Assembly (NCBI GenBank): GCA_030149205.1
Contig: JASBSB010000007.1
Location: forward strand, 570,001-602,000
DNA: 32,000 nt
Reading direction: 5' to 3'
Origin: Candidatus Heimdallarchaeota archaeon
Lineage (GTDB): Archaea; Asgardarchaeota; Heimdallarchaeia; Heimdallarchaeales; Kariarchaeaceae
Of the stretch, positions 4,920 to 25,591 are shown in pieces. The notes under the pieces are model-generated. The model was given only the letters and a program-made list of their open reading frames with translations, was not told where the DNA came from and searched no databases. Made by a program: the position numbers and the translations under genes. Positions within the stretch are counted from its first letter, which is position 1; every line of letters begins with the position of its first letter.

Positions 4920-5972
4920 ATGATATCGTTAGTCATAGAACAGAATCTTTACGCTTCACTAGAACCTAATATTCGAGAGGTTCTATATATCTGCTTCCCA
5001 CTCACAATTGAAAAGGGGTCTGCTTCATATCCTCTTCCGGAAGATTTCAAAGTTAGATCTGAGAAAAGCCCTGAAGATTGGATAAAAGTCGGAGCAACGG
5101 AAATTTATCTCGATAATACTCAAGAGACGAACTATGGACAATGGAAAGAGATCTACAGTATCGAAGATTTGAAAAATCTCGTCAATCACATCTCAGTCCC
5201 AACAGTAGTTGATTTTCAATCTACTAATTTTGACCCTGTGCTCCTTGAACAATCAATCAAGAATCTACCATCTTTAATCCCTGTAACAATAGTGTTTGAT
5301 TATAAATCGTTAGATACTCTTTTAACCCTTATATCACTGGATCTCGATCTAGGGATACGTGTAAGAAATACTCAAAGCATTACTGAATTGTTGAGGAATT
5401 ATACAAACCTTCTGAAATTTAATTCTGAGAAATTGATTCCTACTGTCACCTTAGATCAAGACTCTCGCTTTCTTATGATGGCCTACTCAAGCCGTGAATC
5501 AGTAGATCTTACAATTGACACTAGGTATGCAACTTATTTCAGTCGATCCAGATCAAGACTTTGGAAAAAGGGTGAAACCTCAGGAAACTTACAACAGATC
5601 ACTAAGATTAGGATGGACTGTGATAGGGATACCTTGGTCTTCTATACCACCCCTCTTGGTCCAGCTTGTCACAGAGGCACATACAGTTGCATTGGAGGGA
5701 AGCAGTTAAGATATAAGGATTTCTTTACAAGAGTCCAAAAGAGAATTATAAACCCAGATCCCAATTCTTATACTCAGAGGTTGATCAAAGATCCAAAACT
5801 TCTTTCAGACAAGATAGCAGAAGAGAGTAACGAAGTAATAAATTACACAGACAAAATGAACTTAGTTTGGGAGATTGCTGACCTCACATATTTTGTATCT
5901 GTACTTATGATCAGGGAAGGTATACGGGCAAAAAACGTTTTACGTGAATTGAAATCTAGGGAGAGAAATTAG
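4920..5972 (+). CDS. hisIE: Bifunctional phosphoribosyl-AMP cyclohydrolase/phosphoribosyl-ATP pyrophosphatase with an N-terminal extra domain of about 170 aa
   Basis: HisI motifs YFSRSRSRLWKKGETSGN, DCDRDTL, ACHRGTYSC; HisE motifs SYTQRL, KIAEESNE, WEIADLTYF. Confidence 0.95.
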   Translation: MISLVIEQNLYASLEPNIREVLYICFPLTIEKGSASYPLPEDFKVRSEKSPEDWIKVGATEIYLDNTQETNYGQWKEIYSIEDLKNLVNHISVPTVVDFQSTNFDPVLLEQSIKNLPSLIPVTIVFDYKSLDTLLTLISLDLDLGIRVRNTQSITELLRNYTNLLKFNSEKLIPTVTLDQDSRFLMMAYSSRESVDLTIDTRYATYFSRSRSRLWKKGETSGNLQQITKIRMDCDRDTLVFYTTPLGPACHRGTYSCIGGKQLRYKDFFTRVQKRIINPDPNSYTQRLIKDPKLLSDKIAEESNEVINYTDKMNLVWEIADLTYFVSVLMIREGIRAKNVLRELKSRERN

Positions 5973-5974
5973 CT

Positions 5975-6967
5975 ATGAATGGTAAGACAAGTTCAACAAT
6001 TAAAATTGGCATTCCATCTAAAGGGAGAATGGGAGAAGAAACCATTGAGTTCCTCAAAAAATGTGGTTTGGAAGTAAAGAGAACAAGACGTAACTATTTT
6101 GCTTCTATTCCAGCCTATCCTGACATCAAGGTGGTTTTACAAAGGCAAGAAGACATTGTAAAAGGGGTCACCTCAGGTCTGCTTGAGATGGGTATCATCG
6201 GATTTGATTTATATACTGAAATTTTGAATAGTGAGGAGAAGAGACAAACAATAGTATTGTTTGACGACCTTGAGTTTGGAAAATGTGACTTAGCAATCGC
6301 AGTTCCTGAGGAATGGGAAATTTCTGATATTACAGAATTTGATCGGTCAAAGGGGTATAGAGTTGCAACAAAATTCACTAACACAACCCAGGAATTTTTG
6401 GATACGCAAAATATCGCTTTTCAATTTGTTGAAGGTGCAGGAACACTCGAAATCTCACCAGCTTTGGGAAATGCAGATTTCATTGTTGATTTGGTATCAA
6501 CGGGCCAAACGCTCAAAGATAACAGGTTGAAACAGATTAACAACGGAAAGATACTCAGTTCACAAGCGATATTTGTTGGAAACAGGACAATCCTGAAATC
6601 AACCCCTGAGGCTTTACACATAGCTAGCGATTTAATAGAAATATTTGCCGCAACATTAAGAGCAGAAAAATTTGTATCTGTATTTGTTAATATGAGGGGA
6701 AATAACAGGCAGGAGATAATTGATCAATTTTTTACTGTGGATGGATTAGAGGGTTTACAAGGTCCTACAGTGTCAGATGTATACACAAAGGACAACGGGG
6801 ACTGGTTTGCGGTTCATCTTGTGGTGGCAAAGAGAAACTTACTCACAGCAATAAAAAACATCAGACAACTCGGAGGTTCTGGGGTTGTTGTTTCGGAGAC
6901 TAATTATATCTTTGAGGAGGAACCAAAGCAGTACACTCTCCTTAAAGAACAGCTTAGGGGTGAATAA
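5975..6967 (+). CDS. hisG: ATP phosphoribosyltransferase, long form
   Basis: GIPSKGRM, VATKF, GTLEISPALGNADFIVDLVSTGQTLKDNRL; C-terminal regulatory domain GLQGPTVS...GGSGV. Confidence 0.96.
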   Translation: MNGKTSSTIKIGIPSKGRMGEETIEFLKKCGLEVKRTRRNYFASIPAYPDIKVVLQRQEDIVKGVTSGLLEMGIIGFDLYTEILNSEEKRQTIVLFDDLEFGKCDLAIAVPEEWEISDITEFDRSKGYRVATKFTNTTQEFLDTQNIAFQFVEGAGTLEISPALGNADFIVDLVSTGQTLKDNRLKQINNGKILSSQAIFVGNRTILKSTPEALHIASDLIEIFAATLRAEKFVSVFVNMRGNNRQEIIDQFFTVDGLEGLQGPTVSDVYTKDNGDWFAVHLVVAKRNLLTAIKNIRQLGGSGVVVSETNYIFEEEPKQYTLLKEQLRGE

Positions 6968-8308
6968 ATGAAGATACTAAACGTTGATGAGGCTCGTAAG
7001 AGCATATTACTAAGAAGGCCTCTGATTGATTATGAATTGCCAGACAGACTAAAAGATGCGATTAAATCAATCTTTGGAAAAGATCTGGATGCAAGGGGTG
7101 TTGTGCTTCAAATAATTGATGATGTTATAAATGATGGAGATAAGGCACTAAAAGACCTAACCAACAGAATTGATGGTGTTCAGATGTCGAATTTCAAAGT
7201 TCAGAGTGATGAATTTGAGAATGCTGAGTTTAACACAGAAAATGACATTTTAGTCGCATTAAAAGAATCAATAACCCGAGTATATAGATTTCATCAGCAA
7301 CAACCTGTTAACTCATGGGTTACTCAGGAGTTAGGTGGAACTCTTGGTCAACTTATACGACCAATTGAAAGAATTGGCTGTTATGTCCCAGGTGGCTCAG
7401 CTCCTCTTCCCTCAACAGTCATAATGAGTATAATTCCTGCAATTGTTGCGGGGGTTAAACAAATTGTTATCACAACTCCTCCTCAAAAATCTGGAGAAGT
7501 TTCCACAGTAATTCTTACAGCAGTGCAATTAATAAGAGAACAATTCCCTGATATAGAACTATCTTTATACAAGGTCGGTGGTGCTCAAGCAATCGCTGCT
7601 ATGGCGTTTGGAACACAAACAATCCCCAAGGTCGATAAAATAGTAGGGCCCGGTAATATTTTTGTCTCGATAGCAAAAAAAGAGGTATTTGGGGTTGTTG
7701 GAATTGATGGAATTGCTGGACCAACAGAGGCCATGATTCTTGCAGATGAATCTGTAAATGCTGATCTGATAGCTGCTGATCTTCTTGCACAGGCAGAACA
7801 TGATCCGATGGCAGTACCCATTCTGGTTACGACCAGCCTAGACTTTGCTTTACTGGTCAACAAATGTGTTGAGAAGCAAGTTGCAGACCTTTCCAGATCA
7901 GAGATAATCAAATCATCTATAAACAACAGGGGTGGAATCGTGTTAGTTGACAGCATTGAACAAGGAATTGTTATAGTCAACGAATTTGCACCAGAACATC
8001 TTTCACTTGCAGTGAAAGGTTATTGGGACATTATTCCCAAGATTCATAATGCTGGAGGTATATTTCTTGGTGAGCTTTCTTGTGAGGTTCTAGGTGATTA
8101 CATCGCGGGACCAAGCCATGTGATGCCCACAGGTGGTTCTGCTAAATATGCCTCACCTTTGAATATATTAGACTTTGTGAAGATCGTCAGTCTCGTTGGA
8201 CTCGATAAGTCAACAGTCCAAAAAATATCTACGCAAGCAGAAACAATAGCCCAATCCGAAAAGCTGACTGCACACGCAGCAGCAGCTAAACTTAGGAGTC
8301 AGATATAA
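6968..8308 (+). CDS. hisD: Histidinol dehydrogenase
   Basis: YVPGG, GGAQAIAAMAFGT, KIVGPGN, AGPTE, DLLAQAEHD, APEHL, GDYIAGPSHVMPT. Confidence 0.97.
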   Translation: MKILNVDEARKSILLRRPLIDYELPDRLKDAIKSIFGKDLDARGVVLQIIDDVINDGDKALKDLTNRIDGVQMSNFKVQSDEFENAEFNTENDILVALKESITRVYRFHQQQPVNSWVTQELGGTLGQLIRPIERIGCYVPGGSAPLPSTVIMSIIPAIVAGVKQIVITTPPQKSGEVSTVILTAVQLIREQFPDIELSLYKVGGAQAIAAMAFGTQTIPKVDKIVGPGNIFVSIAKKEVFGVVGIDGIAGPTEAMILADESVNADLIAADLLAQAEHDPMAVPILVTTSLDFALLVNKCVEKQVADLSRSEIIKSSINNRGGIVLVDSIEQGIVIVNEFAPEHLSLAVKGYWDIIPKIHNAGGIFLGELSCEVLGDYIAGPSHVMPTGGSAKYASPLNILDFVKIVSLVGLDKSTVQKISTQAETIAQSEKLTAHAAAAKLRSQI

Positions 8309-9414
8309 TGATCCCTAGAATTGCAGTACAGTCAATGGAAGCTTATTCTCCATTAAAAAGTCTAAAAGAAATTTCAGAAGAGATAAAGCTCGATGTCAAT
8401 GAAATCGTCAAACTCAATGGGAACGAGAACCCATTTCCATTATCATTTCAAATGACTGATACCATAAACTTAGAAGTATATCCAGACCCAGAGTCGAAGG
8501 TTCTCACTCAAAAGATTGCAAATTTTGTTGGGTTAGCACCAGATCAGGTCTTTGTTGGTGCTGGTGCGGATGAAATAATTGATCTGATACAACGGGCATT
8601 TCTCAATCCAGGTGATAGAGTAATCAGCTTAGAACCAACATTCAGCATGTACGAGTTTTTCTGTAATCTGAACTCGGGAAATTTTATATCAATCCCCATG
8701 AGGAAGGTGGTTAATCTCAACCTATCAGAATATCAAATCCCCACAGACAAGGTGCTGAAGGAGGCAGATAATGCAAAGATGATTTTTCTTAGCTCACCTA
8801 ATAATCCAGATGGGAAGCTGGTCAACAATAATCTTATCTTAGAATTACTACGGAAAGGGGTGCTCGTTGTACTGGATGAGGCCTATATTGAATTTTCACA
8901 TCAATCACCAACAATAAACTTAGTAAATGAGTATTCAAATCTGATTGTCTTAAGAACCTTCAGCAAAGCGTTTGGACTGGCTGGCATGAGAATTGGGTAT
9001 GCACTTCTAAACCCAGAGTTAAAGTTCATCCTCCAGAAGATCAAGCAACCTTATAATGTTACAACATTGTCTCAAAATCTCGCAATAAATGCATTGGAAA
9101 GAATTAAGGAGATACAAGAGAATGTAGAAGTTATAAAAGAGATCAGAGATGAATACTTTCAAAAATTTTCTGAGCTGACTATTCAAACCGACCAATTGAA
9201 AATTCACAGATCAGATGCAAATTTCATTCTAATGGACTTTACTACTCCAAAAATTGCAAGTGAGATTTTCCAGTATCTGAAGCAAGAGGGAGTTCTCGTA
9301 AGATATTACAATAATGAAATACTTAACAGCTCAATACGTGTATCAATCGGGAGAAGGGAACAGATGGAGAAGGTTTATTCTCTTCTCTCAAAAAAACTAG
9401 CGGTGATAAAATGA
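8308..9414 (+). CDS. hisC: Histidinol-phosphate aminotransferase
   Basis: NENP, GADEIID, SPNNPDG, DEAYIEF, RTFSKAFGLAGMRIGY; TAATG coupling to hisD. Confidence 0.96.
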   Translation: MIPRIAVQSMEAYSPLKSLKEISEEIKLDVNEIVKLNGNENPFPLSFQMTDTINLEVYPDPESKVLTQKIANFVGLAPDQVFVGAGADEIIDLIQRAFLNPGDRVISLEPTFSMYEFFCNLNSGNFISIPMRKVVNLNLSEYQIPTDKVLKEADNAKMIFLSSPNNPDGKLVNNNLILELLRKGVLVVLDEAYIEFSHQSPTINLVNEYSNLIVLRTFSKAFGLAGMRIGYALLNPELKFILQKIKQPYNVTTLSQNLAINALERIKEIQENVEVIKEIRDEYFQKFSELTIQTDQLKIHRSDANFILMDFTTPKIASEIFQYLKQEGVLVRYYNNEILNSSIRVSIGRREQMEKVYSLLSKKLAVIK

Positions 9415-10007
9415 CAAGACAAGGAGAAATCAGTCGAAAGACAAAGGAAACAGAAATCAAAGTTGTAATAAACTTGGATGGAGAGGGAAACACGAACATA
9501 TCAACAGGTATTGGGTTCTTGAACCACATGCTCACAGCATTCGCTGTTCATGGAAAATTTAACCTAGAGGTAAAAGCAATTGGGGATCTAGATATTGACA
9601 CACATCACACAGTGGAAGATATAGCCATCTGTCTGGGGCTAGCAATACAACAAGCAATAGGAGAAAAAAGAGGGATTGAACGAATGGCAGATTCCTTTGT
9701 TCCAATGGATGAATCTCTGGTTCGTGTAGTCTTGGATCTATCAGGAAGACCATATTTTGTTAGTGACTTCAAATGGGATTCTCCCTTAATTGGAAGTATC
9801 AGCTCTCAGATCATTAAAACCAGTGAGATTGAACATTTTCTAGAAACCCTTGCCTTCAGATCACTTACCACACTTCACATAAAGGTGTTCTATGGGAGAG
9901 ATGACCATCACATGTCTGAAGCTGTTTTCAAGGCACTTGGGAGGGCATTGTATAAAGCAACTAGGATTGTTGGCACTACTGTTCCCTCATCAAAGGGAAT
10001 ACTGTAA
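9411..10007 (+). CDS. hisB: Imidazoleglycerol-phosphate dehydratase, monofunctional (no phosphatase domain)
   Basis: RKTKETEI, TGIGFLNHML, DTHHTVED, PMDES, DDHHMSEAVFKA; ATGA overlap with hisC. Confidence 0.97.
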   Translation: MTRQGEISRKTKETEIKVVINLDGEGNTNISTGIGFLNHMLTAFAVHGKFNLEVKAIGDLDIDTHHTVEDIAICLGLAIQQAIGEKRGIERMADSFVPMDESLVRVVLDLSGRPYFVSDFKWDSPLIGSISSQIIKTSEIEHFLETLAFRSLTTLHIKVFYGRDDHHMSEAVFKALGRALYKATRIVGTTVPSSKGIL

Positions 10008-10018
10008 GAGGATAAAAG

Positions 10019-10621
10019 ATGATAGCAATAGTTAATACTGGCTCTGGAAATCTAAGATCAGTTCAAAAAGCACTTGAATTATTTTATCCAGAGATTAAGA
10101 TAATTGATACCCCAAAAAGCATCAGTTCAGCAGATGGGATGGTCTTGCCTGGGGTAGGTTCCTTTGGTGATGCAGTTGATACATTAAATGAAATAGATCT
10201 TTTTGAGGAAGTTAAGGAGTTGGGAAAATCCATACCGGTACTTGGAATTTGTCTGGGAATGCAGATTCTTTTTGAGCGATCTGAAGAGTCACCAGATGCT
10301 ACAGGTTTAGGATTGTTAAGAGGAGAGGTTTTAAAACTTCATCCTCTCAATGATACTAATGTCCCACATACTGGTTGGAATCGTTTAATTCCACAGCAAA
10401 AGGAACAGAAGATTGAGAACCTTAAGTACGCCTATTTCAATCACTCATATTACTGCCACCCTGAGGATGAAAATGTTATTGATTATTCTGTTATCCATGG
10501 GGGAAAATATCCCGCGATTATCCAGAAGAGAAATATCTTAGCAACACAGTTTCATCCAGAAAAGAGTAGAGAGAGTGGTGAACAGGTGTTGAAGTATTTT
10601 GTGAGGTCGGTTAGACAGTGA
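10019..10621 (+). CDS. hisH: Imidazole glycerol phosphate synthase glutaminase subunit
   Basis: GSGNLRSV, LPGVGSF, GICLGMQ (catalytic Cys), PHTGWN, QFHPEKS. Confidence 0.96.
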   Translation: MIAIVNTGSGNLRSVQKALELFYPEIKIIDTPKSISSADGMVLPGVGSFGDAVDTLNEIDLFEEVKELGKSIPVLGICLGMQILFERSEESPDATGLGLLRGEVLKLHPLNDTNVPHTGWNRLIPQQKEQKIENLKYAYFNHSYYCHPEDENVIDYSVIHGGKYPAIIQKRNILATQFHPEKSRESGEQVLKYFVRSVRQ

Positions 10622-12210
10622 AGAAAATACTTGTAGCAATAGATCTCATGAACGGAGAGGTAGTCAGACTTAGCCAAGGTGAATTTTCAAATAAGACAGT
10701 CTATTCAAAGACGCCTCTAGATGTAATGAAGAAGTTTGTCTCAGAAGGGGTCGAATGGTTTCATATTGTAAACCTTGATGGAACACAAGCAGAACCGAAA
10801 ATACAACCCAATAATGGAACCAATAATGGAACCAAAACAGGAACTAATAATGAGACTGACGATGACAGTAGGTCTGCCAATTTAACCGTCATAAGACAAC
10901 TGATCAAGTATGGAAAATCAGTTGGGGTCAGTATTCAAATTGGTGGAGGGGTAAGAAATTATACCCAGGTCAAAAAATACCTTGAAATTGGTGTTGACAG
11001 GGTTGTGATTGGAACCTTGGTGTTCAGTGATCCAACTGAATTTAAAAAAATATTATCCGCGTATTCGACTCAAGTAGTCGTTGCTCTTGATGTCTTGGAT
11101 GGAATTGTAAGGGTTCATGGTTGGACTAAATCAACAGAGACAAGCATTGAAACTGCAATCTCTGACCTTCTTTCTCTTGGTGTATCCAACTTTCTTGTGA
11201 CAGACATCAAGAAGGATGGAATGCTGTCAGGAATTAATACTGAACTTTACAGAAAAATTCAATCCCTTTTAGACAGTTCGGAGAGTAAAAAATCAGGGAA
11301 TCACATTGAGATTATTGCTTCTGGGGGTGTAAATTCTCTTGACTCAATTAAATCTGCATTAGAGGTCTGTGGATCTGTTGTCGTAGGTAGGAGTCTATAT
11401 GAGGGAACAATTAACCAAGCTCAACTTGGAAACATAATTTTGGCGTATAACAAAAGCTATCTGACAAAACGAATCATTCCATGTCTTGATGTAAAAAATG
11501 GGAAGGTTGTCAAGGGGGTCAACTTTCTCAATCTCAAAGATATAGGTGATCCAGTCGAGATGGCAATGTACTACAATGAAAAAGGGGCTGATGAGCTTGT
11601 GTTTTTAGATATTACTGCCACAGTTGAAGGTCGAAAAGCAACACTTTCCAAGATACGTGAGGTTGCAGAGACTGTATTCATCCCATTCACAGTTGGTGGA
11701 GGGGTCAAGACACTTGCCGATATTCAAGATATCATTAATGCAGGAGCAGAGAAGGTCGCCATTAATTCGGGAGCGATAAGCAACCCAGAAGTTCTGACTC
11801 AGGGTGCACATAAATTTGGCTCTCAATGCATAGTCTTAGCTGTCGATGTTAAACAAAAAGGTGACACTTGGGAGGTTTACTCTCAGGCAGGAACACAACC
11901 AACAGGGCTTGATGCATTTAGATGGATTGAGAAAGCCATATCTAAGGGAGCAGGTGAAATTCTTGTCACAAGTATAGACAGAGACGGAACCAAACAGGGT
12001 TTCGATTTACAGCTGTTGTCAGAGCTACGAGCAAGATTCAAGGTACCCATTATTGCTTCTGGTGGTGCTGGTCAAGTAGAGCATTTTGCAGAGATATTTG
12101 ACATTGGGATTGATGCAGGATTGGCTGCATCCATCTTTCATGAGAGAGAGATTGAGATTCATACCCTGAAAAGGCTATTGAAAAGTCGAAATGTTAGAGT
12201 AAGAATCTGA
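10618..12210 (+). CDS. hisA/hisF: HisA-HisF fusion (ProFAR isomerase plus IGP synthase cyclase subunit)
   Basis: N-half: [53 protein letters not shown]-half: [46 protein letters not shown]. One continuous 530-aa ORF with a GTG start. Confidence 0.95.
10810..10857 (+). repeat. Four degenerate 12-bp tandem units within the HisA domain ([16 protein letters not shown])
   Basis: AATAATGGAACC AATAATGGAACC AAAACAGGAACT AATAATGAGACT. Confidence 0.85.
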
Positions 12211-18311: not shown

Positions 18312-18521
18312 ATGCAAACACAAGTAAGTGAACAACTAAACGAAATCAATCAATTAATCTTTATCTGCACAGTATGTGACGCTGAGAATGACCTCGAACA
18401 GAGCACAGAAATCAACGAAATTGTTGAATGTATGGATTGTGCAACTGAATTTGAGGTAATCTCATTAGAGCCAATTCAAGTGGTTGAATTAGAACTTTCT
18501 GACGAGGATTGGGGACAGTAA
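18312..18521 (+). CDS. lysW: Amino-group carrier protein LysW with an atypical C-terminal Gln
   Basis: CTVC...CMDC zinc-ribbon pairs, acidic composition, C-terminus GAC GAG GAT TGG GGA CAG TAA = DEDWGQ. Confidence 0.92.
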
Positions 18522-18546
18522 TTCCTTCGGAAGCGAGTTATCCAAA

Positions 18547-19410
18547 ATGAACATTGGATTCATTCATTCCTTAATCAGACCAGAAGAAAAACTACTCCTA
18601 AAAGAATTCGACCGTAAAGGTGTTTCGCCAATAAGAATAGATTCAAGAACCTTTCAGTTTGATTCATCGGCTACAAACATCCAATCAAATGATCTCATCC
18701 TGGAGAAAAATCATTTGGACTCGGTTTTTAATCGATCTTTAAGTTACTCTCAAAGCCTTCAAACCTTGAGGATTTTTGAGAGTCTTGCAGTACATACAAT
18801 GAATTCTTCTGAGGTTTTAGAAAATTGTGGGGATAAGATAAAAACCAGTCTAGCCTTAAAAAATGTACCACAACCTGAATTTGGCGTGGCTTTCTCCATG
18901 GAGGGTGCACTGTCACTAATTGAGCAGATGGGGTATCCTGTGGTTTTAAAGCCAGTTATAGGTTCCTGGGGAAGATTATTATCTAAGATAAATGATAGAG
19001 ATGCCGCAGAATCAGTGTTGGAACACAAATTTACATTGGGAAACTATACACATTCAGTAATTTACGTACAAAAATTTGTGGAAAAAGGAGGGCGAGACAT
19101 TAGAAGCTTTGTTGTTGGGGATGAATGTATTGCTGCAATTTACCGAGACAGTCCTCATTGGATAACTAACACAGCGAGAGGTGGAACAGCCAGCAACTGC
19201 CCTGTGACTGAAGAAATCAAAGAACTGTCGCTAGCCGCAGCAAAGGCAGTTGGAGGGGGTATAGTTGCTATTGACCTCTTTGAATCCCCACAGGGTCTTT
19301 TGGTAAATGAGGTTAATGGAACAATGGAGTTTAAGAACAGTATTCAAACCACTGGTGTGAACATTCCAGAGAAGATCGTTGAATTTTATGTTAATGAGGT
19401 TAGAATGTAA
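18547..19410 (+). CDS. lysX: LysW-alpha-aminoadipate (or glutamate) ligase, RimK/ATP-grasp family
   Basis: [45 protein letters not shown]; the [13 protein letters not shown] motifs match the LysX type as I recall it. Confidence 0.93.
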
Positions 19411-20447
19411 TGGTTGAAGTCAGTATAATTGGAGGGTCTGGATTTGTAGGTGGTGAGCTCTTAAGATTGCTACTTTTTCATCCAGAGGTAACAGTAAAAC
19501 AGGTTACCTCTGAGACTCACAAAGGGAAATTTGTGAAGTCCATACGTCCACACCTTCGACAGGTAACTGATATAAAATTTAGTTCTGTGGCTAATTTACA
19601 GTCATGTGACACTATATTTCTTGCTTTGCCCCATGGAAGGTCTTTTGGACTGATACAACATGTAATTGAAAGCTGCAACAATGTGATTGACCTGAGTGCT
19701 GACTATAGATTAAGATCAGAGAAGGAGTATGAAAGATGGTATGGTGAAAAACATCTATTTCCTGAGCTTTTGAGACGTTTTGTTTATGGTATCCCAGAGC
19801 TGTACAGAAAGGACATGTCTAAATCAAATCTGGTTTCTAGCGCAGGGTGTAACGCCACAGCTTCAATTTTGGCACTTCACCCTATTTTTCAAGAAATTGG
19901 AGACCAAGTAAGAGATGTTGTGATTGATGTAAAGGTGGGAAGTTCTGAGGGTGGTAAATCTTATAATCAGGCAAGCCATCATCCCATCAGGGCAGGTTCC
20001 CTAAGGAGTTATAAGCCAGTGATGCATCGACATTCTGCAGAAATTAATCAGGAGTTATTTTCTACTGATAGATCAGTTTATTTTTCTGCTACGTCCACTA
20101 ACATCGTAAGAGGATTATTAGCAACAAGTCAGGTGTTATTAGAAGATTCAGTCTCTGAAAAAGATGTTTGGAAGATGTTTCGTAAACATTACTCTTCAGA
20201 ACCTTTTATTCGTCTTGTGAATGATAAACAAGGATTGTTCCGTTATCCAGACCCAAAAACACTAGCAGGAAGCAACTTCTGTGATATTGGGTTTGCGAGT
20301 GATCCTGATAATAACAGATTAGTTGTTATCAGTGCCATTGATAACCTCATGAAGGGTGCAGCTGGTCAAGCTGTTCAGGCTTTCAATATTATGCACTCTT
20401 ACGATGAGGTCACTGGTCTGCAATTTCCGGGTTTATATCCTGTGTAG
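19410..20447 (+). CDS. lysY: [LysW]-aminoadipyl/glutamyl-phosphate reductase (ArgC family)
   Basis: GGSGFVGGELLRLL, LALPHG, DLSADYRL, GCNATA (catalytic Cys), IDNLMKGAAGQAVQ. Confidence 0.93.
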   Translation: MVEVSIIGGSGFVGGELLRLLLFHPEVTVKQVTSETHKGKFVKSIRPHLRQVTDIKFSSVANLQSCDTIFLALPHGRSFGLIQHVIESCNNVIDLSADYRLRSEKEYERWYGEKHLFPELLRRFVYGIPELYRKDMSKSNLVSSAGCNATASILALHPIFQEIGDQVRDVVIDVKVGSSEGGKSYNQASHHPIRAGSLRSYKPVMHRHSAEINQELFSTDRSVYFSATSTNIVRGLLATSQVLLEDSVSEKDVWKMFRKHYSSEPFIRLVNDKQGLFRYPDPKTLAGSNFCDIGFASDPDNNRLVVISAIDNLMKGAAGQAVQAFNIMHSYDEVTGLQFPGLYPV

Positions 20448-20456
20448 GGTTTTCTT

Positions 20457-21107
20457 ATGTGTAGACTGTTAAGTTTTATTGCATCAGATTTGATAGATCC
20501 CAGCAAGATTCTAGAGGATTTTGCAAGGGCATGCTCAATCAGTAAAGAGTATCAGGGGCATGGGTGGGGTATATCATATCTTGATACAGAATCGGGGGAA
20601 TGGAAACTTCGTAAGGAGATCAATCCCATATGGGAATCGAACTTTGGGGTGATTCCCCCAACCAACCAGTTTTTCGTTCATGCAAGATCTGCTTTTAAGG
20701 ATGAAGGAATAACCATTGAAAACAATATGCCGTTTGAGGATGAGAATTATATTTTCATCTTTAACGGTGAGCTTAGAGGGGTTAAACTCAATGTGGAAGG
20801 TAGAATAGGTGCAGAGAAGCTCTTTAATTTCATGAAGAAATTTTTCTATCTAGGTGTTGAGGAGGGGATAAGAAAAGCAATGGGGATAGTTAACAAGCGA
20901 ACTCAATACATAAGAGGCAGCAACTTTATGATTTATGACAAGAATACACAAACTCTGTATATTAATTCTAAATTTAATGAAGATTCTGAATATTTTTCAT
21001 TGGAAAGACTAGATATAGAAGGTGGTTTCATCATCTCATCTTTGAAATTTACTGATGGTGATTGGTCTTCCCTGCCAAATAATTCTCTGGAGGTAATCCC
21101 ATGTTAA
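20457..21107 (+). CDS. Class II glutamine amidotransferase-like Ntn hydrolase (EgtC/YafJ/Dug3-like)
   Basis: N-terminal MCR (Cys nucleophile after Met removal), GHGWG, HARSA, ENNMPF, FNGEL; no synthetase domain; overlaps the lysZ start by 7 nt. Confidence 0.85.
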   Translation: MCRLLSFIASDLIDPSKILEDFARACSISKEYQGHGWGISYLDTESGEWKLRKEINPIWESNFGVIPPTNQFFVHARSAFKDEGITIENNMPFEDENYIFIFNGELRGVKLNVEGRIGAEKLFNFMKKFFYLGVEEGIRKAMGIVNKRTQYIRGSNFMIYDKNTQTLYINSKFNEDSEYFSLERLDIEGGFIISSLKFTDGDWSSLPNNSLEVIPC

Positions 21108-23110
21108 TTCTAAAGGTAGGTGGGGGATCTCAGATAAACTTTGAGGAGATCATTCTTGACCTTCATTCCATAGATGAAGAGGTAATTGTTGTCTTAGGTG
21201 CAAACTCGACTCGTTCCAAATTAGCAGAGCTTCAGAACCTAAATCTGGAGACTGTGACGTCTGTCAGCGGTGTCTCTAGTGTTTTAACAACCCCATCTGT
21301 AGTTGATATAATCATGCAATCTTATGCTGGACTTCAAAGTCAGTTGTTTGTCGAGAAATGTCAGCAAAACGGAATCAATGCAATTAGTCTTTCTGGATTG
21401 GATGGAGGACTGATAAAAGGAAAGAAAAACAAAGGGATCAAGGTAGTTATTAATGGAAAGAAAAAGGTTATAAGAGATTTATCTGGTAAACCTGACACGC
21501 TAAATGTCGACCTACTGACGACTCTAATCGATAAAAAGTTTGTTCCCGTAATTACTATTCCCATTATGGGTGAAAATGGAGAGGCATTAAACACAGAAAA
21601 TGATGATATTGTTAGCCTCCTACAAAGAGAACTGTCAGCAGAAAGAGTAATTCACCTCATAGAAGCCCCAGGGATTCTTCAGGACCCTGAAAATGAGGAG
21701 TCTATGCTAACGAATATTAGCCTCATTGAATTGGAGGTGCTGATTTCAACATCCGCTGGGAGATTTAAGCGGAAGCTTTTGTCACTTCAGACCTTAATAA
21801 AACAAAACTGTGAGCAGATTTATATCGGGGACGGGAGAGTCAAGAATCCAATCCAGAAGTGTTTAAATGGTGAATTCACTAAAATTGTTAATACTAATAT
21901 CGAGAAGACAAAAGATTCAGTCGAATGGATAGAACTAGAGGAGAAATATGCCCTTGGTGTATTTCCAAAGCGTAGGGTTGTGATTGAAAGGGGAAAAGGT
22001 GCCAAGGTCTGGGACACTGATGGAAATGAGTATATTGATTGTGTCGGTGGTTGGGGCGTATCGATCTTGGGGCATTCAAATCCTAAAATTGCTGATGTGA
22101 TAAGTACACAATCTAGAAAAATAATTACAGTTCCTTCTTCATTTTACAACCGGACGAGAGCTGAGTTGATGAAAAAACTTGTGGAGATATCTCCAATGGG
22201 GTTGGATCATGTGTTTTTAACTAACTCAGGAACTGAAAGCGTTGAAGCAGCGCTAAAATTTTCAATGATATCTACAGGGCGTGATAAATTCATATCAGCA
22301 GTTAAAGGATTTCATGGTAGGTCATTGGGATCATTATCTGTTACTCACAAGATGAAGTATCGAGAGCCCTTTATGAGTTATTTAAACTCTGATAAGGTGA
22401 CATTTGTTCCATTTAACAGAGAGGACAAGATTCTCCCACTGATAACAAATGAAATAGCGGCAGTTATACTAGAGGTTATTCAGGGTGAAGGGGGAGTGAA
22501 TATTGGAGACGCATCCTATTTTCAGGCAGTGGAGGCAAAATGTCATGAAACAGGAACACTTTTGATAATTGATGAGGTTCAAACAGGTTTCTGTAGAACT
22601 GGCTCAATGTTTGCTACTGACTTAGTTAACATCACTCCTGACATTTTATGTCTTGCAAAAGCAATAGCAGGTGGAGTTCCTATGGGTGCGGTTCTTACGA
22701 ATGATAAGGTGAAAGTATCTGTGGGAAGTCATGGAACTACTTTTGGTGGAAACCCCTTGGCTTGTGCTGTGGCCCTAGAATCTATAAACATTTTAATCAG
22801 TGAAAACATAGCCGAACAGGCAAAAACCAAAGGAAATACGTTTTATCAACTGCTTTCCTCAAGTATCACAGGTTCGAATTTAAAGATCGTAAAAAACATA
22901 AGAAACATGGGGTTAATGATTGGAATAGATTTAAGAAGACCAGTTAAGTCGATAATTGATGCTTTGGATGCACGTGGTGTTCTTACAATGCCTGCTGGTA
23001 CAACAACTTTAAGGTTATTACCACCGGCTGTTATTACTGAAGATGAAATACATCAAGTTGTCGAAGAGATAATTTCTGTTTTAAGAATGACAGATAAAAA
23101 TTCATTATAA
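21101..23110 (+). CDS. lysZ/lysJ: LysZ-LysJ fusion: [LysW]-aminoadipate/glutamate kinase plus class III PLP aminotransferase
   Basis: About aa 1-265 amino-acid kinase (ILKVGGG, SGLDGGLI, LNTEND). From about aa 277, aminotransferase (RGKGAKVWDTDGNEYID, NSGTESVEAA, FHGRSLG, DEVQTGF, LAKAIAGG, HGTTFGGNP). One 669-aa ORF. Confidence 0.93.
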   Translation: MLILKVGGGSQINFEEIILDLHSIDEEVIVVLGANSTRSKLAELQNLNLETVTSVSGVSSVLTTPSVVDIIMQSYAGLQSQLFVEKCQQNGINAISLSGLDGGLIKGKKNKGIKVVINGKKKVIRDLSGKPDTLNVDLLTTLIDKKFVPVITIPIMGENGEALNTENDDIVSLLQRELSAERVIHLIEAPGILQDPENEESMLTNISLIELEVLISTSAGRFKRKLLSLQTLIKQNCEQIYIGDGRVKNPIQKCLNGEFTKIVNTNIEKTKDSVEWIELEEKYALGVFPKRRVVIERGKGAKVWDTDGNEYIDCVGGWGVSILGHSNPKIADVISTQSRKIITVPSSFYNRTRAELMKKLVEISPMGLDHVFLTNSGTESVEAALKFSMISTGRDKFISAVKGFHGRSLGSLSVTHKMKYREPFMSYLNSDKVTFVPFNREDKILPLITNEIAAVILEVIQGEGGVNIGDASYFQAVEAKCHETGTLLIIDEVQTGFCRTGSMFATDLVNITPDILCLAKAIAGGVPMGAVLTNDKVKVSVGSHGTTFGGNPLACAVALESINILISENIAEQAKTKGNTFYQLLSSSITGSNLKIVKNIRNMGLMIGIDLRRPVKSIIDALDARGVLTMPAGTTTLRLLPPAVITEDEIHQVVEEIISVLRMTDKNSL

Positions 23111-23155: not shown

Positions 23156-25591
23156 ATGTTGATTGTGAGTAAGTCCAGCAAAATTTTAAAAGGCATTCTG
23201 ATTATGGTGCTCTTGATAACCACTCCACTTGCGGGAATCTATATTGGTGTGAAAAACACATCTGACCACTTCTACACGAATATGAAATTTCCACAATTAT
23301 CTAAGGCAGTCACTGTTTCTAGAGATAGCAAAGGAGTTCCAACAATATCTGGATCAAATCTTAATGATGTTCTCTTCGTTCAGGGATATGAGATTGCCAG
23401 GGATCGGTTATGGCAGTTGGAATTTTACCGGAGTCTTTCGAATGGGGAACTTTCAAGGATTCTTGGGCCATCTCTTCTTGAGACTGACAAATTCATTCAT
23501 AACATCCTGATTCCAAACGCAAACGAGTACAATGCTGCGCATATCAACTCAACACTTCGATCAATGGTAGAAAGTTATATTGACGGAATTAACAAATTTA
23601 TTTTGGGTCATTTAGACTCTCTTCCATTAGAATTCCAGTTACTTGGGGTAAAGCCCAAACTCTGGCAGGTGAAGGATGTGTTTGGAATGCAAAGTGCAAT
23701 GGCCCTAAATTTTGCATTTGGAGGGTTATCCACAGAGTTACTAAGACAGGACACCATAAAGAAAGTTGGAGTGAAAAAGATGTTAGAGCTATTTCCGGTG
23801 CTGTATCCACCCGCAAGAAAATATTTGTTAAGTCTCAATCACACAACACCATTGCCATATATCAATTCCAAGTTTAATCTAAACAAAATAAAGAGAGCTC
23901 TTTATGGGACAGGATTTTCTTCACAGTTGTTTGCCTCCAATAATTGGGTTGTTTCAGGTGCTAAAACAGTATCGGGACATCCCCTTATATCGAACGACCC
24001 TCACCTTGGACTTGCTGTCCCTGGACTTTGGTATCAGGTAAATCTTGAGACTCCAGAATTTCATGCACAAGGTTTTACGCTTCCAGGAACTCCGTTTGTA
24101 ATTCTTGGACACAATAGGTATGTTGCTTGGGGAGCGACTTCAGGGTTGACCGATGTTGTTGATTTGTATTATCTCAATCAGAATGGTACACATTATTTGG
24201 TCAACAACTCAACTTGGAAGCCATTTCAACTCTTAAAAGAGTATATCCCTCAAAAGGATGGTTCAAATGTTACTGTAGAAATTAAACTCACAGATTTTGG
24301 CCCAATGATGAATCTAACTCAGGGATATTATGCTTTTCAGTGGGTAAACAATATGAAGTATTCCAATAACCAGATCTTTCGGTCAATCTATGATCTGAAC
24401 ACAGCAAAAAGTGTGCAAGACGCACATAATGCACTCAGGTATTTTGAGGTTCCTGGGTTAAATTTTGTTTTGGCAGACGTTCAAAACAACATCGCCTATC
24501 AGTTTGTCGGGAAACTGCCCACAAGGAAAACAGGATTTGGATTGATACCACACAACGGGAGCAACGGTCAGTTTTATTGGAACGGTACGATTCCATACTC
24601 TGAAAACTACTATGTCTTGAATCCATCTTCTCACTTTTTCGCAACAGCAAACGAAAGAGTAGATCCGCGAGAGAAATTTTACATATCTGAGGCATTTGCA
24701 TTAAAATATAGGGACGCTAGGATCTCAGAAGTTTTGGCGAACTTTACTGATTTTAAAACAGATAATCTAGGGAAGTTTACAGTGAATGATATGATGCGAC
24801 TACAAGCTGATGTAAAAACCTTGGTCGCTCAGGATTTGCTTTTGCCAGTGCTCCCATATTTTAATGGACAGATTTCCAAATTAAATAACTCTAATGTCAT
24901 CCAATCAATTAAATTGCTTGACTCTTGGAATCTTCGAATGGACAAAAATCAGATTGCACCAACCATCTTTACAACGTATCGTCTCTTCTATACTCAAATG
25001 ACCTTTTTAGATGATGTTGGACAGGAGATAACCAACGCCCTCTCATACTCAGGTATTCGAGTAATAGCAAATCTGTTAAAGACGAACATTAACAGTCCTT
25101 GGTTTGATATAAATGGAACGAAGAAGAAGGAAAACGGGTATGACATTGCTCTGTTAAGCTTAGAAAAAGCAGTTCAGTATCTTGAGACCCGGTTAGGTAA
25201 GAATATGAATGGATGGAAATGGGGGAGTATTCATCAAACCTACTTTAAACACCCTTTGTCCTCTGTTCCAGAGTTATCCTTTTTGAATATTGGTCCACAG
25301 CCCTCAAACGGTTCTGTTTTTACGGTAAATGCAATATATGGACCGACCTATCATAACGGGAAAATCACCTACAGTGATAACTATGGGCCATCGTTTAGAT
25401 TTTCATTTGAGGTTGAACCGACTTGGAGTAAAACTTATGGGATTTACGCACCTGGGTCGAATGGAGTTTATCTGGATCCAAACTATTCCAGTGGATACAA
25501 TAATTGGTTAAATTTCAAGTATTCTCATTGGACTTTTTCAGCAACTGAAGCACAAAAATCTGCACAATTTATCTATGTTTATTCTCCTTAA
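23156..25591 (+). CDS. Penicillin acylase family (S45) Ntn hydrolase with an N-terminal signal anchor
   Basis: RDSKGVPTI, ARDRLWQLE, SNNW nucleophile, NDPHL, GHN, NFVLAD. Confidence 0.92.
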   Translation: MLIVSKSSKILKGILIMVLLITTPLAGIYIGVKNTSDHFYTNMKFPQLSKAVTVSRDSKGVPTISGSNLNDVLFVQGYEIARDRLWQLEFYRSLSNGELSRILGPSLLETDKFIHNILIPNANEYNAAHINSTLRSMVESYIDGINKFILGHLDSLPLEFQLLGVKPKLWQVKDVFGMQSAMALNFAFGGLSTELLRQDTIKKVGVKKMLELFPVLYPPARKYLLSLNHTTPLPYINSKFNLNKIKRALYGTGFSSQLFASNNWVVSGAKTVSGHPLISNDPHLGLAVPGLWYQVNLETPEFHAQGFTLPGTPFVILGHNRYVAWGATSGLTDVVDLYYLNQNGTHYLVNNSTWKPFQLLKEYIPQKDGSNVTVEIKLTDFGPMMNLTQGYYAFQWVNNMKYSNNQIFRSIYDLNTAKSVQDAHNALRYFEVPGLNFVLADVQNNIAYQFVGKLPTRKTGFGLIPHNGSNGQFYWNGTIPYSENYYVLNPSSHFFATANERVDPREKFYISEAFALKYRDARISEVLANFTDFKTDNLGKFTVNDMMRLQADVKTLVAQDLLLPVLPYFNGQISKLNNSNVIQSIKLLDSWNLRMDKNQIAPTIFTTYRLFYTQMTFLDDVGQEITNALSYSGIRVIANLLKTNINSPWFDINGTKKKENGYDIALLSLEKAVQYLETRLGKNMNGWKWGSIHQTYFKHPLSSVPELSFLNIGPQPSNGSVFTVNAIYGPTYHNGKITYSDNYGPSFRFSFEVEPTWSKTYGIYAPGSNGVYLDPNYSSGYNNWLNFKYSHWTFSATEAQKSAQFIYVYSP

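What the first reader, a model, noticed from the sequence alone, without database searches (positions are those of the whole stretch)
18312..18521. LysW carrier ends in EDWGQ, lacking the Glu that normally carries the substrate
Seen: the terminal codons are GAT TGG GGA CAG TAA. Known: LysX/ArgX ligate the substrate amino group to the gamma-carboxylate of the C-terminal Glu of LysW (EDWGE). A terminal Gln has that group blocked as an amide. The rest of the operon is intact and translationally coupled, which argues against decay. Inference: the carrier is made as an amide-capped precursor that needs deamidation, or the ligation chemistry differs. GAG and CAG differ by one base, so a sequencing error or private mutation is possible.
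Basis: partly seen in the sequence, partly recalled or inferred. Interest (0 to 1): 0.76.

Follow-up and report, generated by a model that had tools for sequence, protein, structure and literature searches.

The report
Glutamine-capped LysW carrier with cysteine hydrolase
The only carrier protein this Asgard archaeon has for building lysine is encoded with its attachment site blocked as glutamine; this is a conserved feature, and a cysteine hydrolase in the same operon most likely unblocks it, much as mycobacteria unblock their Pup tag.

Summary
Window 18312-18521 encodes a 69-aa LysW zinc ribbon ending EDWGQ (CAG). It is not a sequencing error or a private mutation. All five relatives found in three genera of the same family also end in Gln, using both CAA and CAG, although neutral sites between them are saturated. 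Two independent metagenome assemblies show the same codon.

The operon is lysW-lysX-lysY-orf216-lysZJ. It has no LysK. Orf216 is a stand-alone Cys2 Ntn hydrolase whose closest fold is EgtC. Its family sits in this position in at least 90 operons across many phyla. Genomes with this operon type lack LysK, so orf216 is probably the release enzyme.

A complex model puts the LysW tail, including Q69, in the Cys2 site (score 0.73, best control 0.00). Best reading: the same hydrolase deamidates Gln to Glu and later frees lysine, as Dop does for PupQ.

Two limits apply. 47 of 62 such operons encode Glu. I also found EDWGQ in canonical lysWXYZJK operons of another Asgard genus that lacks orf216. The cap is therefore not tied to this enzyme.

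This scan has noted Gln-ended LysW before on other DNA. I found no paper on it in the held library. No biochemistry exists.

The parts
18312..18521 (+). lysW: a 69-aa amino-group carrier protein. It has a zinc ribbon (C19, C22, C40, C43) and an acidic tail ending EDWGQ.
   Evidence: It is the only LysW in the genome.
18516..18518 (+). Terminal CAG (Gln69) codon, where characterised LysW proteins have Glu.
   Evidence: Gln is kept as CAA or CAG in all family relatives.
18547..19410 (+). lysX: the ATP-grasp ligase that loads the carrier. Its specificity motif is F188-I198-T209-N264-S265, the 'LysX type' (alpha-aminoadipate).
   Evidence: TIGR02144, 326.6 bits. The alignment to Thermus LysX 1uc8 is; the motif definition is from PMC12998189.
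19410..20447 (+). lysY (argC-like), the reductase that acts on the carrier-bound acyl phosphate.
   Evidence: TIGR01850, 376 bits.
20457..21107 (+). orf216: a stand-alone class-II-glutamine-amidotransferase-like Ntn hydrolase. It starts MCR (Cys2 nucleophile), has invariant R77 and N103-G104, and has an EgtC-like fold. Proposed roles: LysW deamidase and product-release hydrolase.
   Evidence: invariant residues; pLDDT 94.4; EgtC TM 0.71-0.78; complex with the LysW tail; occupies the place of LysK.
21101..23110 (+). lysZ-lysJ fusion, 669 aa: an amino-acid kinase plus a class-III aminotransferase.

Best explanation
LysW is made here as a capped pro-carrier. Its C-terminal Gln69 is a gamma-glutamyl amide, which is the same kind of bond that links the finished amino acid to LysW.

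The operon's Cys2 Ntn hydrolase (orf216, 20457-21107) binds the EDWGQ tail. Cys2 attacks the gamma-carbonyl, ammonia leaves, and water resolves the thioester. This gives LysW-Glu, which LysX can then load with alpha-aminoadipate using ATP. After LysZ, LysY and LysJ have acted, the same hydrolase cuts LysW-gamma-lysine and regenerates LysW-Glu, replacing the missing metallo-enzyme LysK.

Shown by the data: the Gln is real, conserved and apparently selected; orf216 has an EgtC-like Ntn fold with its nucleophile intact; it occupies the LysK role by gene order and by the absence of LysK. Inferred: both catalytic activities and their order.
For: (1) Gln is conserved. The window and the five relatives found in its family all end EDWGQ, with both CAA and CAG. 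Four-fold degenerate sites in lysX and lysY between them are only 22-50% identical, close to random.

(2) It is the sole carrier, in a genome without lysA or ArgJ but with homocitrate synthase (434.8 bits). The pathway therefore depends on it.

(3) orf216 has invariant M1-C2-R3, R77 and N103-G104. The model has pLDDT 94.4. The best PDB matches are EgtC, a gamma-glutamyl-amide hydrolase also crystallised with glutamine (E 5e-12, TM 0.71-0.78).

(4) Complex model of orf216 with LysW: score 0.73, best of 3 controls 0.00. That mark was reached by 58 of 80 solved complexes and 2 of 110 mismatched pairs; these counts hold only roughly because my own alignments were used. The runs agree in at least 98% of contacts and partner pLDDT is at least 78. 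The interface is orf216 residues 1-2, 77-81, 91, 102-113 and 117-122 against LysW 64-69.

(5) The order X-Y-orf216-Z-J holds in nearly all of the 90 loci (exceptions such as L051 and L099), and none has a LysK-like hit. Five genomes with this operon, three of them chromosome-level assemblies, have no LysK over the cut-off, and neither does this genome. In one Asgard genome the hydrolase sits at the operon end, where LysK normally lies (L186).

(6) No column in LysX, LysY or orf216 tracks Q versus E across 7 independent Q clades. This argues that the downstream chemistry is unchanged.

(7) All 6 Gln-ended LysW drawn from a database-wide search whose context could be read lie in this operon type.

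(8) Precedent: PupQ is deamidated to PupE by Dop, which is also the isopeptidase that removes Pup (PMC8599861).
Against: There is no biochemistry. orf216 is not specific to Gln carriers: 47 of 62 operons containing it encode Glu, so it needs no Gln substrate to be useful. EDWGQ also occurs in canonical lysWXYZJK operons of four species of another Asgard genus. Those genomes have only weak (22-28 bit) generic class-II-amidotransferase-like hits, which are also present in the Glu-encoding sister. Uncapping can therefore happen without orf216. If the cap were merely tolerated, Q and E should interchange freely, yet each state persists within its clade. The model does not explain that. The complex score is the model's own confidence, not a measurement.
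Confidence: 0.55

Rival explanations
1. The Gln is converted to Glu by some other enzyme, not orf216. Candidates are a general amidase, the ArgE/DapE-family deacylase elsewhere in the genome, or LysK in LysK-type operons. In that case orf216 would only release the product.
For: EDWGQ occurs in lysWXYZJK operons without an orf216 orthologue, so another route exists in nature. This genome has an ArgE/DapE-family deacylase on another contig (TIGR01910, 239 bits against cut-off 217.6). Most orf216-type operons encode Glu.
Against: orf216 is the one amidohydrolase conserved in the operon of every Gln-ended relative. Its fold family hydrolyses gamma-glutamyl amides and binds glutamine. The complex model puts Q69 next to Cys2. 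The penicillin-amidase gene downstream (23156-25591) is absent from the relatives' loci.
Confidence: 0.2
2. The ligation chemistry differs. LysX joins the substrate to the alpha-carboxylate of the terminal Gln, as RimK-family ligases do, so no deamidation is needed.
For: LysX belongs to the RimK alpha-L-glutamate ligase family (TIGR00768, 289.5 bits). The only free carboxylate on a Gln terminus is the alpha one.
Against: No LysX column co-varies with Q versus E across 7 independent switches. The window's LysX has the same F-I-T-NS motif as Thermus LysX. E and Q alternate between related operons whose LysZ, LysY and LysJ stay alike, although those enzymes would face a different linkage geometry. 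An Ntn gamma-glutamyl hydrolase would be a poor fit for releasing an alpha-linked product.
Confidence: 0.1
3. The Gln-ended protein is not a working carrier. It is a decoy, a regulator or a decaying gene.
For: As encoded, it lacks the gamma-carboxylate that the known chemistry uses.
Against: It is the only LysW in a 93.5%-complete genome that lacks the diaminopimelate route. The whole operon is intact and syntenic in relatives whose synonymous sites are saturated. Gln itself is kept through CAA/CAG turnover.
Confidence: 0.05
4. Sequencing error or private mutation (GAG read as CAG).
For: The two codons differ by one base.
Against: The source has depth 80.8 with no variant. Two independent assemblies carry the same codon. 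Five relatives carry Gln.
Confidence: 0.01

Closest known systems
LysW/ArgW amino-group carrier protein pathway (Thermus thermophilus LysWXZYJK; Sulfolobus; Thermococcus kodakarensis)
   Same: A zinc-ribbon carrier with an acidic EDWG tail. The neighbouring genes are LysX, LysY, LysZ and LysJ. LysX carries the Thermus-type F-I-T-NS motif, and homocitrate synthase is present in the genome.
   Different: The terminal residue is encoded as Gln, not the Glu that carries the substrate. There is no LysK; an Ntn cysteine hydrolase sits between lysY and lysZ. lysZ and lysJ are fused.
LysK, the [LysW]-lysine hydrolase (M20 metallopeptidase, TIGR01902 / NF003367)
   Same: The proposed job of orf216 is the same: cutting the gamma-glutamyl isopeptide that holds lysine on LysW. 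In one Asgard operon the Ntn gene occupies LysK's terminal position.
   Different: The fold and mechanism are unrelated: a Cys N-terminal nucleophile rather than a di-metal centre. No LysK-like sequence occurs in 90 orf216-type loci or over the cut-off in 6 such genomes.
EgtC, the ergothioneine-pathway Ntn amidohydrolase (PDB 4ZFJ, 4ZFK, 4ZFL)
   Same: The best structural match (TM 0.71-0.78). Both have a Cys2 nucleophile and share the GxGWG, RSA, PF and NG motifs. EgtC hydrolyses a gamma-glutamyl amide and binds free glutamine.
   Different: Only 17-19% identity. The EgtC equivalog scores 26.7 bits against a cut-off of 218.65. The gene context is LysW, not ergothioneine genes. The presumed substrate is a protein C-terminus.
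Pup and Dop of Actinobacteria (PupQ/PupE; Dop is both deamidase and depupylase)
   Same: The logic is the same. A small protein is ligated through the gamma-carboxylate of its C-terminal Glu. It is encoded as Gln in some lineages and Glu in others. The enzyme that cleaves the gamma-glutamyl isopeptide also deamidates the Gln form (PMC8599861).
   Different: The parts are not homologous. Dop and PafA are glutamine-synthetase-like, whereas here the enzymes are an ATP-grasp ligase and an Ntn hydrolase. The purpose is amino-acid biosynthesis, not protein tagging. The dual activity is proven for Dop and only inferred here.

Membership tests
LysW / amino-group carrier protein | Zinc ribbon with two CxxC pairs that matches the family profile | tested here: met
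   C19, C22, C40 and C43 are invariant in 31 sequences. PF21344 scores 38.4 bits against cut-off 27. The stricter TIGR01206 equivalog scores 41.1 bits against cut-off 53.2, so it is not reached.
LysW / amino-group carrier protein | C-terminal EDWGE, with a terminal Glu whose gamma-carboxylate takes the substrate | tested here: not met
   The protein as encoded ends EDWGQ. D66, W67 and G68 are invariant but the last residue is Gln. Whether the mature protein ends in Glu cannot be tested here.
LysW / amino-group carrier protein | Encoded next to LysX, LysY, LysZ and LysJ | tested here: met
   The same order is found in five relatives.
LysW pathway with LysK release | An M20 [LysW]-lysine hydrolase (LysK) in the operon or genome | tested here: not met
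   The best TIGR01902 match in the genome is 105.5 bits against cut-off 163.1, on another contig. It scores better as a generic ArgE/DapE deacylase.
Class-II glutamine amidotransferase-like Ntn hydrolases | N-terminal Cys nucleophile directly after Met1 | tested here: met
   M1, C2 and R3 are invariant in 31 homologues.
Class-II glutamine amidotransferase-like Ntn hydrolases | Four-layer Ntn fold with an Asn-Gly oxyanion element | tested here: met
   Model pLDDT 94.4. Foldseek probability is 1.00 to EgtC, 1te5, 3mdn and the GlmS and PurF glutaminase domains. N103 and G104 are invariant and align to EgtC's NG.
EgtC (ergothioneine biosynthesis) | Scores as the EgtC equivalog and lies with egt genes | tested here: not met
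   TIGR03442 scores 26.7 bits against cut-off 218.65. The neighbours are lys genes.
Pup/Dop-type cap-and-release logic (works like, not membership) | One hydrolase both deamidates the Gln-ended carrier and cleaves the gamma-glutamyl isopeptide | not testable with these tools
   There is only indirect support: the fold, the docking of the tail at Cys2 and the absence of LysK.

The most novel reading that the evidence does not exclude
The Gln cap is not a tolerated mutation but a selected licensing step. New carrier molecules become usable only after the pathway's own release hydrolase has acted on them. That would be a convergent counterpart of PupQ/Dop inside amino-acid biosynthesis. The cap would then be present in about a tenth of LysW families and would be served by two unrelated hydrolases, Ntn and LysK.
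Probability: 0.3. Interest if true: 0.75.

Novelty: new variant of a known kind. Interest (0 to 1): 0.62.

Why it matters
Every characterised LysW/ArgW pathway attaches its substrate to a genetically encoded terminal Glu and releases the product with the metallo-enzyme LysK. Two things differ here, and in thousands of database proteins. An EgtC-like cysteine hydrolase takes LysK's place, and about one in ten LysW families encode Gln at the attachment site.

If the hydrolase both uncaps and releases, this adds an undescribed maturation step to a core amino-acid pathway. It would also correct the annotation of a family with about 3,000 clusters now labelled 'class II glutamine amidotransferase' or 'hypothetical'. 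It would be a second, independent case of the PupQ/Dop design.

There is a practical consequence for metabolic reconstruction. These genomes would otherwise be scored as lacking the last step of lysine synthesis and as having a dead carrier.

Tried and rejected
- **First word-indexed protein search.** Searching with LysW returned only the query itself. The exhaustive search was needed.
- **Literature.** I found no paper with 'EDWGQ'. Nothing linked LysW with amidotransferase or Ntn hydrolase terms, or with Asgard, Thaumarchaeota or Ignavibacteria. A LysX/LysW hit in a Desulfovibrio paper concerns unrelated genes with the same names.
- **RNA.** No RNA holder was listed among public runs, so nothing can be said about expression.
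- **'Gln only where orf216 is present'.** This was my first idea and the claim of two earlier notes. I rejected it after finding four Asgard species with EDWGQ in lysWXYZJK operons.
- **Co-adaptation.** I looked for LysX, LysY or orf216 residues that switch with Q/E. The best column is a conservative C/S change seen in 5 of 7 Q clades.
- **Penicillin-amidase gene (23156-25591) as helper.** It is not present in the relatives' loci.
- **Virus collection.** A scan for phage-borne Gln-ended LysW-like proteins found nothing.
- **Ammonia-oxidising archaea.** Earlier notes report Gln-ended LysW there. I could not reach them with the genome tool from this window's phylum, so that claim is untested here.
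- **Mis-incorporation of Glu at Gln codons via Glu-tRNA(Gln).** I considered this and dropped it. The same Gln ending occurs in MAGs labelled Gammaproteobacteria. From general knowledge, that group has a glutaminyl-tRNA synthetase; I did not check this.

Full report
**Observation.** The ORF at 18312-18521 (+) encodes a 69-aa protein ending SDEDWGQ, with last codons GAT TGG GGA CAG TAA. It is a LysW-type zinc ribbon: PF21344 scores 38.4 bits against a cut-off of 27. The stricter TIGR01206 model scores 41.1 bits, below its 53.2 cut-off. The ORFs that follow are closely spaced or overlapping (families):
- lysX, 18547-19410 (TIGR02144, 326.6 bits)
- lysY, 19410-20447
- a 216-aa ORF with no Pfam match, 20457-21107
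- a lysZ-lysJ fusion, 21101-23110

**Not an error or a private mutation.**
- The probable source run covers the site at depth 80.8 without a variant.
- Contigs from two other studies cover 18505-18760 and 18395-18624. They differ from the window nearby, at 18546, but not at 18516-18518.
- Five of ten other genomes of the same family, from three genera, have a LysW that is 39-51% identical, and every one ends EDWGQ. The gene order lysW-X-Y-orf216-Z(J) is the same in them.
- Within the family the Gln codon is CAA in three genomes and CAG in two, and the preceding Gly codon also varies.
- Four-fold degenerate sites in lysX and lysY are only 22-50% identical between members, close to the random expectation.
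- If Q and E were interchangeable at saturation, the chance that 4-6 lineages all keep C rather than G at the first codon position is roughly 0.01-0.04. This is my own crude estimate from the base composition. It suggests that Gln is selected in this family.

**The organism and the pathway.** Earlier notes of this scan call the genome a Heimdall-group Asgard archaeon. Two of my results are consistent with that. The genome encodes a true actin (PF00022, 444.9 bits; none of 14 control prokaryotes match). A 51%-identical orf216 homologue is labelled Candidatus Kariarchaeaceae.

| Gene or feature in this genome | Result |
|---|---|
| LysW | one copy only |
| lysA | none |
| ArgJ | none |
| Homocitrate synthase | over cut-off, 434.8 bits |
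| Ornithine carbamoyltransferase | present |
| LysK | none over cut-off; best M20 protein 105.5 bits against 163.1, scores better as a generic ArgE/DapE deacylase |

Aligned to Thermus LysX (PDB 1uc8), the window's LysX has F188, I198, T209 and N264-S265. This is the F-I-T-NS 'LysX type' motif associated with alpha-aminoadipate (PMC12998189). The operon is therefore most likely the sole lysine route, and it depends on this Gln-ended carrier.

**The 216-aa protein.**
- It starts MCR. M1, C2, R3, R77, N103 and G104, among others, are invariant in 31 homologues.
- The AlphaFold model is confident: pLDDT 94.4, pTM 0.91.
- Its best PDB matches are the ergothioneine Ntn hydrolase EgtC in apo form, with glutamine, and with its gamma-glutamyl substrate (E 5e-12, TM 0.71-0.78, 17-19% identity). 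Other stand-alone class-II amidotransferase-like proteins and the glutaminase domains of GlmS and PurF follow.
- Profile alignment shows shared GxGWG, RSA, PF and NG motifs.
- It is not EgtC itself: TIGR03442 scores 26.7 bits against 218.65.
- The family is large, about 2,988 clusters at 90% identity. Databases name it 'class II glutamine amidotransferase', 'hypothetical' or, wrongly, EgtC.

**It stands in for LysK.**
- A scan of one genome per species found 467 relatives in Ignavibacteriota, Binatota, Calditrichota, Gammaproteobacteria, Gemmatimonadota, DPANN archaea and other groups.
- In nearly all of the 90 loci examined the order is lysX-lysY-orf216-lysZ-lysJ.
- A bona fide LysK used as query finds nothing in these 90 loci, 1.07 Mb in total.
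- Five genomes with this operon, three of them chromosome-level assemblies, have no LysK over the cut-off, and two have no M20 match at all at E ≤ 1e-10.
- In one Asgard genome (L186) the hydrolase lies after lysJ, exactly where LysK lies in canonical operons.

**Does it act on the LysW tail?** A complex prediction of orf216 with LysW, both supplied as 31-row alignments, scored 0.73, with the best of 3 controls at 0.00. That mark was reached by 58 of 80 solved complexes and 2 of 110 mismatched pairs; the counts hold only roughly because my own alignments were used. The runs agree in at least 98% of contacts and the partner's pLDDT is at least 78. The interface joins orf216 residues 1-2 (the nucleophile), 77-81, 91, 102-113 (the NG element) and 117-122 to LysW residues 64-69 and part of the ribbon. 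Trp67 makes the most confident contacts. I know of no solved complex of this kind, so recall of a known structure is unlikely. The result is still a model, not a measurement.

| Sample | Glu-ended | Gln-ended |
|---|---|---|
| orf216-type operons with a readable LysW | 47 | 15 |
| Asgard LysK-type clusters outside this family: LysW genes (some clusters carry two) | 24 | 4 |
| Asgard orf216-type clusters outside this family | 0 | 1 |
| Gln-ended LysW from a database-wide search with determinable context | not applicable | 6 of 6 in orf216-type operons |

- On a tree of LysX+LysY+orf216 with 60 rows, the Q/E label needs 7 changes, and starred branches force at least 6. Shuffled labels need 12.8 on average, and 0 of 500 shuffles were as low. 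The window's family forms an all-Gln clade with 99% support.
- The Asgard census covered 301 genomes of the phylum, 46 of which have a LysW.
- The four LysK-type Gln cases are four species of one genus. Their operons are 93-94% identical to each other, and their last gene is a clear LysK (TIGR01902, 296.7 bits). Two sister species, 78-82% identical, encode Glu.
- Those genomes contain only weak generic class-II-like hits of 22-28 bits, which are also present in the Glu-encoding sister.

The cap is therefore more frequent in orf216-type operons in these samples but is not exclusive to them, and orf216 does not need a Gln carrier.

**Is the ligase chemistry altered?** Across the seven independent Gln clades, no column of LysX, LysY or orf216 switches with the terminal residue. 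The best case is a conservative C/S position in 5 of 7 clades. The window's LysX also keeps the Thermus-type motif. This argues that LysX still sees a Glu gamma-carboxylate, which requires prior deamidation.

**Mechanism proposed.** A terminal Gln is chemically LysW-gamma-NH2. It is the smallest member of the class of bonds that the release enzyme must cleave, alongside LysW-gamma-Lys.
1. orf216 binds the tail and forms a gamma-glutamyl thioester on Cys2 as ammonia leaves. Water then gives LysW-Glu.
2. LysX, LysZ, LysY and LysJ then act as in Thermus.
3. orf216 releases lysine by the same chemistry.

In LysK-type operons with Gln, LysK would have to play the same double role. The documented precedent is Pup. 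It is encoded as PupQ in some Actinobacteria and PupE in others, and Dop is both the deamidase and the isopeptidase (PMC8599861). I put this reading at 0.55.

One thing it does not explain is why each lineage keeps its own state. A merely tolerated cap should flip freely. The persistence of Gln here hints at a function, perhaps a licensing step, that I cannot identify.

**Earlier work.** I found no paper in the held library describing a Gln-ended LysW or an Ntn hydrolase in LysW operons. Subscription journals are largely outside that library. This scan has noted the same phenomenon before on other DNA:
- Two notes say the cap occurs only with the Ntn hydrolase. My Asgard data contradict that exclusivity.
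- Other notes report Gln-ended LysW with LysK in ammonia-oxidising archaea. That prompted my search for LysK-type cases. I confirmed such cases in Asgard archaea but could not test ammonia oxidisers.

Noticed in passing
L155-L158 (four Asgard genomes of one genus); sister species L159 and L167: Canonical lysW-X-Y-Z-J-K operons whose LysW ends IEGEDWGQ (codon CAA). Two sister species have IEGEDWGE at the same locus. These genomes also carry a second, Glu-ended LysW cluster.
   Followed up: partly
L186:2770-7962: One Asgard genome has a third LysW cluster, Gln-ended, in which the Ntn hydrolase lies after lysJ in LysK's usual position. A 167-aa homocitrate-synthase fragment sits between lysY and lysZ.
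   Followed up: partly
L021:8001-8168, L015:8001-8168: LysW-like zinc ribbons ending EDWGQ lie on contigs that look like phage. These contigs have long runs of small unannotated ORFs, a TROVE/Ro60 gene and glycosyltransferases, with no LysX nearby. A scan of the virus collection with one of them found no relatives.
   Followed up: partly
L146, L149, L151, L152, L154, L160, L163, L166, L172, L173, L175, L176, L179, L191: Glu-ended LysW-like genes in other Asgard genomes have no LysX within the fetched flank. Several contigs are short, so this may be partly an assembly effect.
   Followed up: no
window 21101-23110: lysZ and lysJ are fused into one 669-aa ORF. The same fusion appears in some, but not most, orf216-type operons of other phyla.
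   Followed up: no
window 23156-25591: An 811-aa penicillin-amidase-family protein (another Ntn hydrolase; PF01804, 596 bits) starts 45 nt after lysZJ. It is absent from the relatives' loci, so it is probably unrelated to the operon.
   Followed up: partly
window 4920-12210: A histidine operon with unusual fusions. A 350-aa HisIE has a roughly 185-aa N-terminal extension with no Pfam match. A 530-aa protein has His_biosynth matches consistent with a HisA-HisF fusion.
   Followed up: no
L202:197-1342, and the gap of about 1.2 kb between lysW and lysX in many Ignavibacteriota loci: In L202 homocitrate synthase sits between lysW and lysX. This ties at least that orf216-type operon to lysine synthesis rather than arginine synthesis. 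The gap gene in the Ignavibacteriota loci was not identified.
   Followed up: partly
tree: The window's family has an operon type that is otherwise mostly bacterial or DPANN, while most other Asgard genomes searched have LysK-type clusters. This suggests transfer of the whole operon between domains.
   Followed up: no
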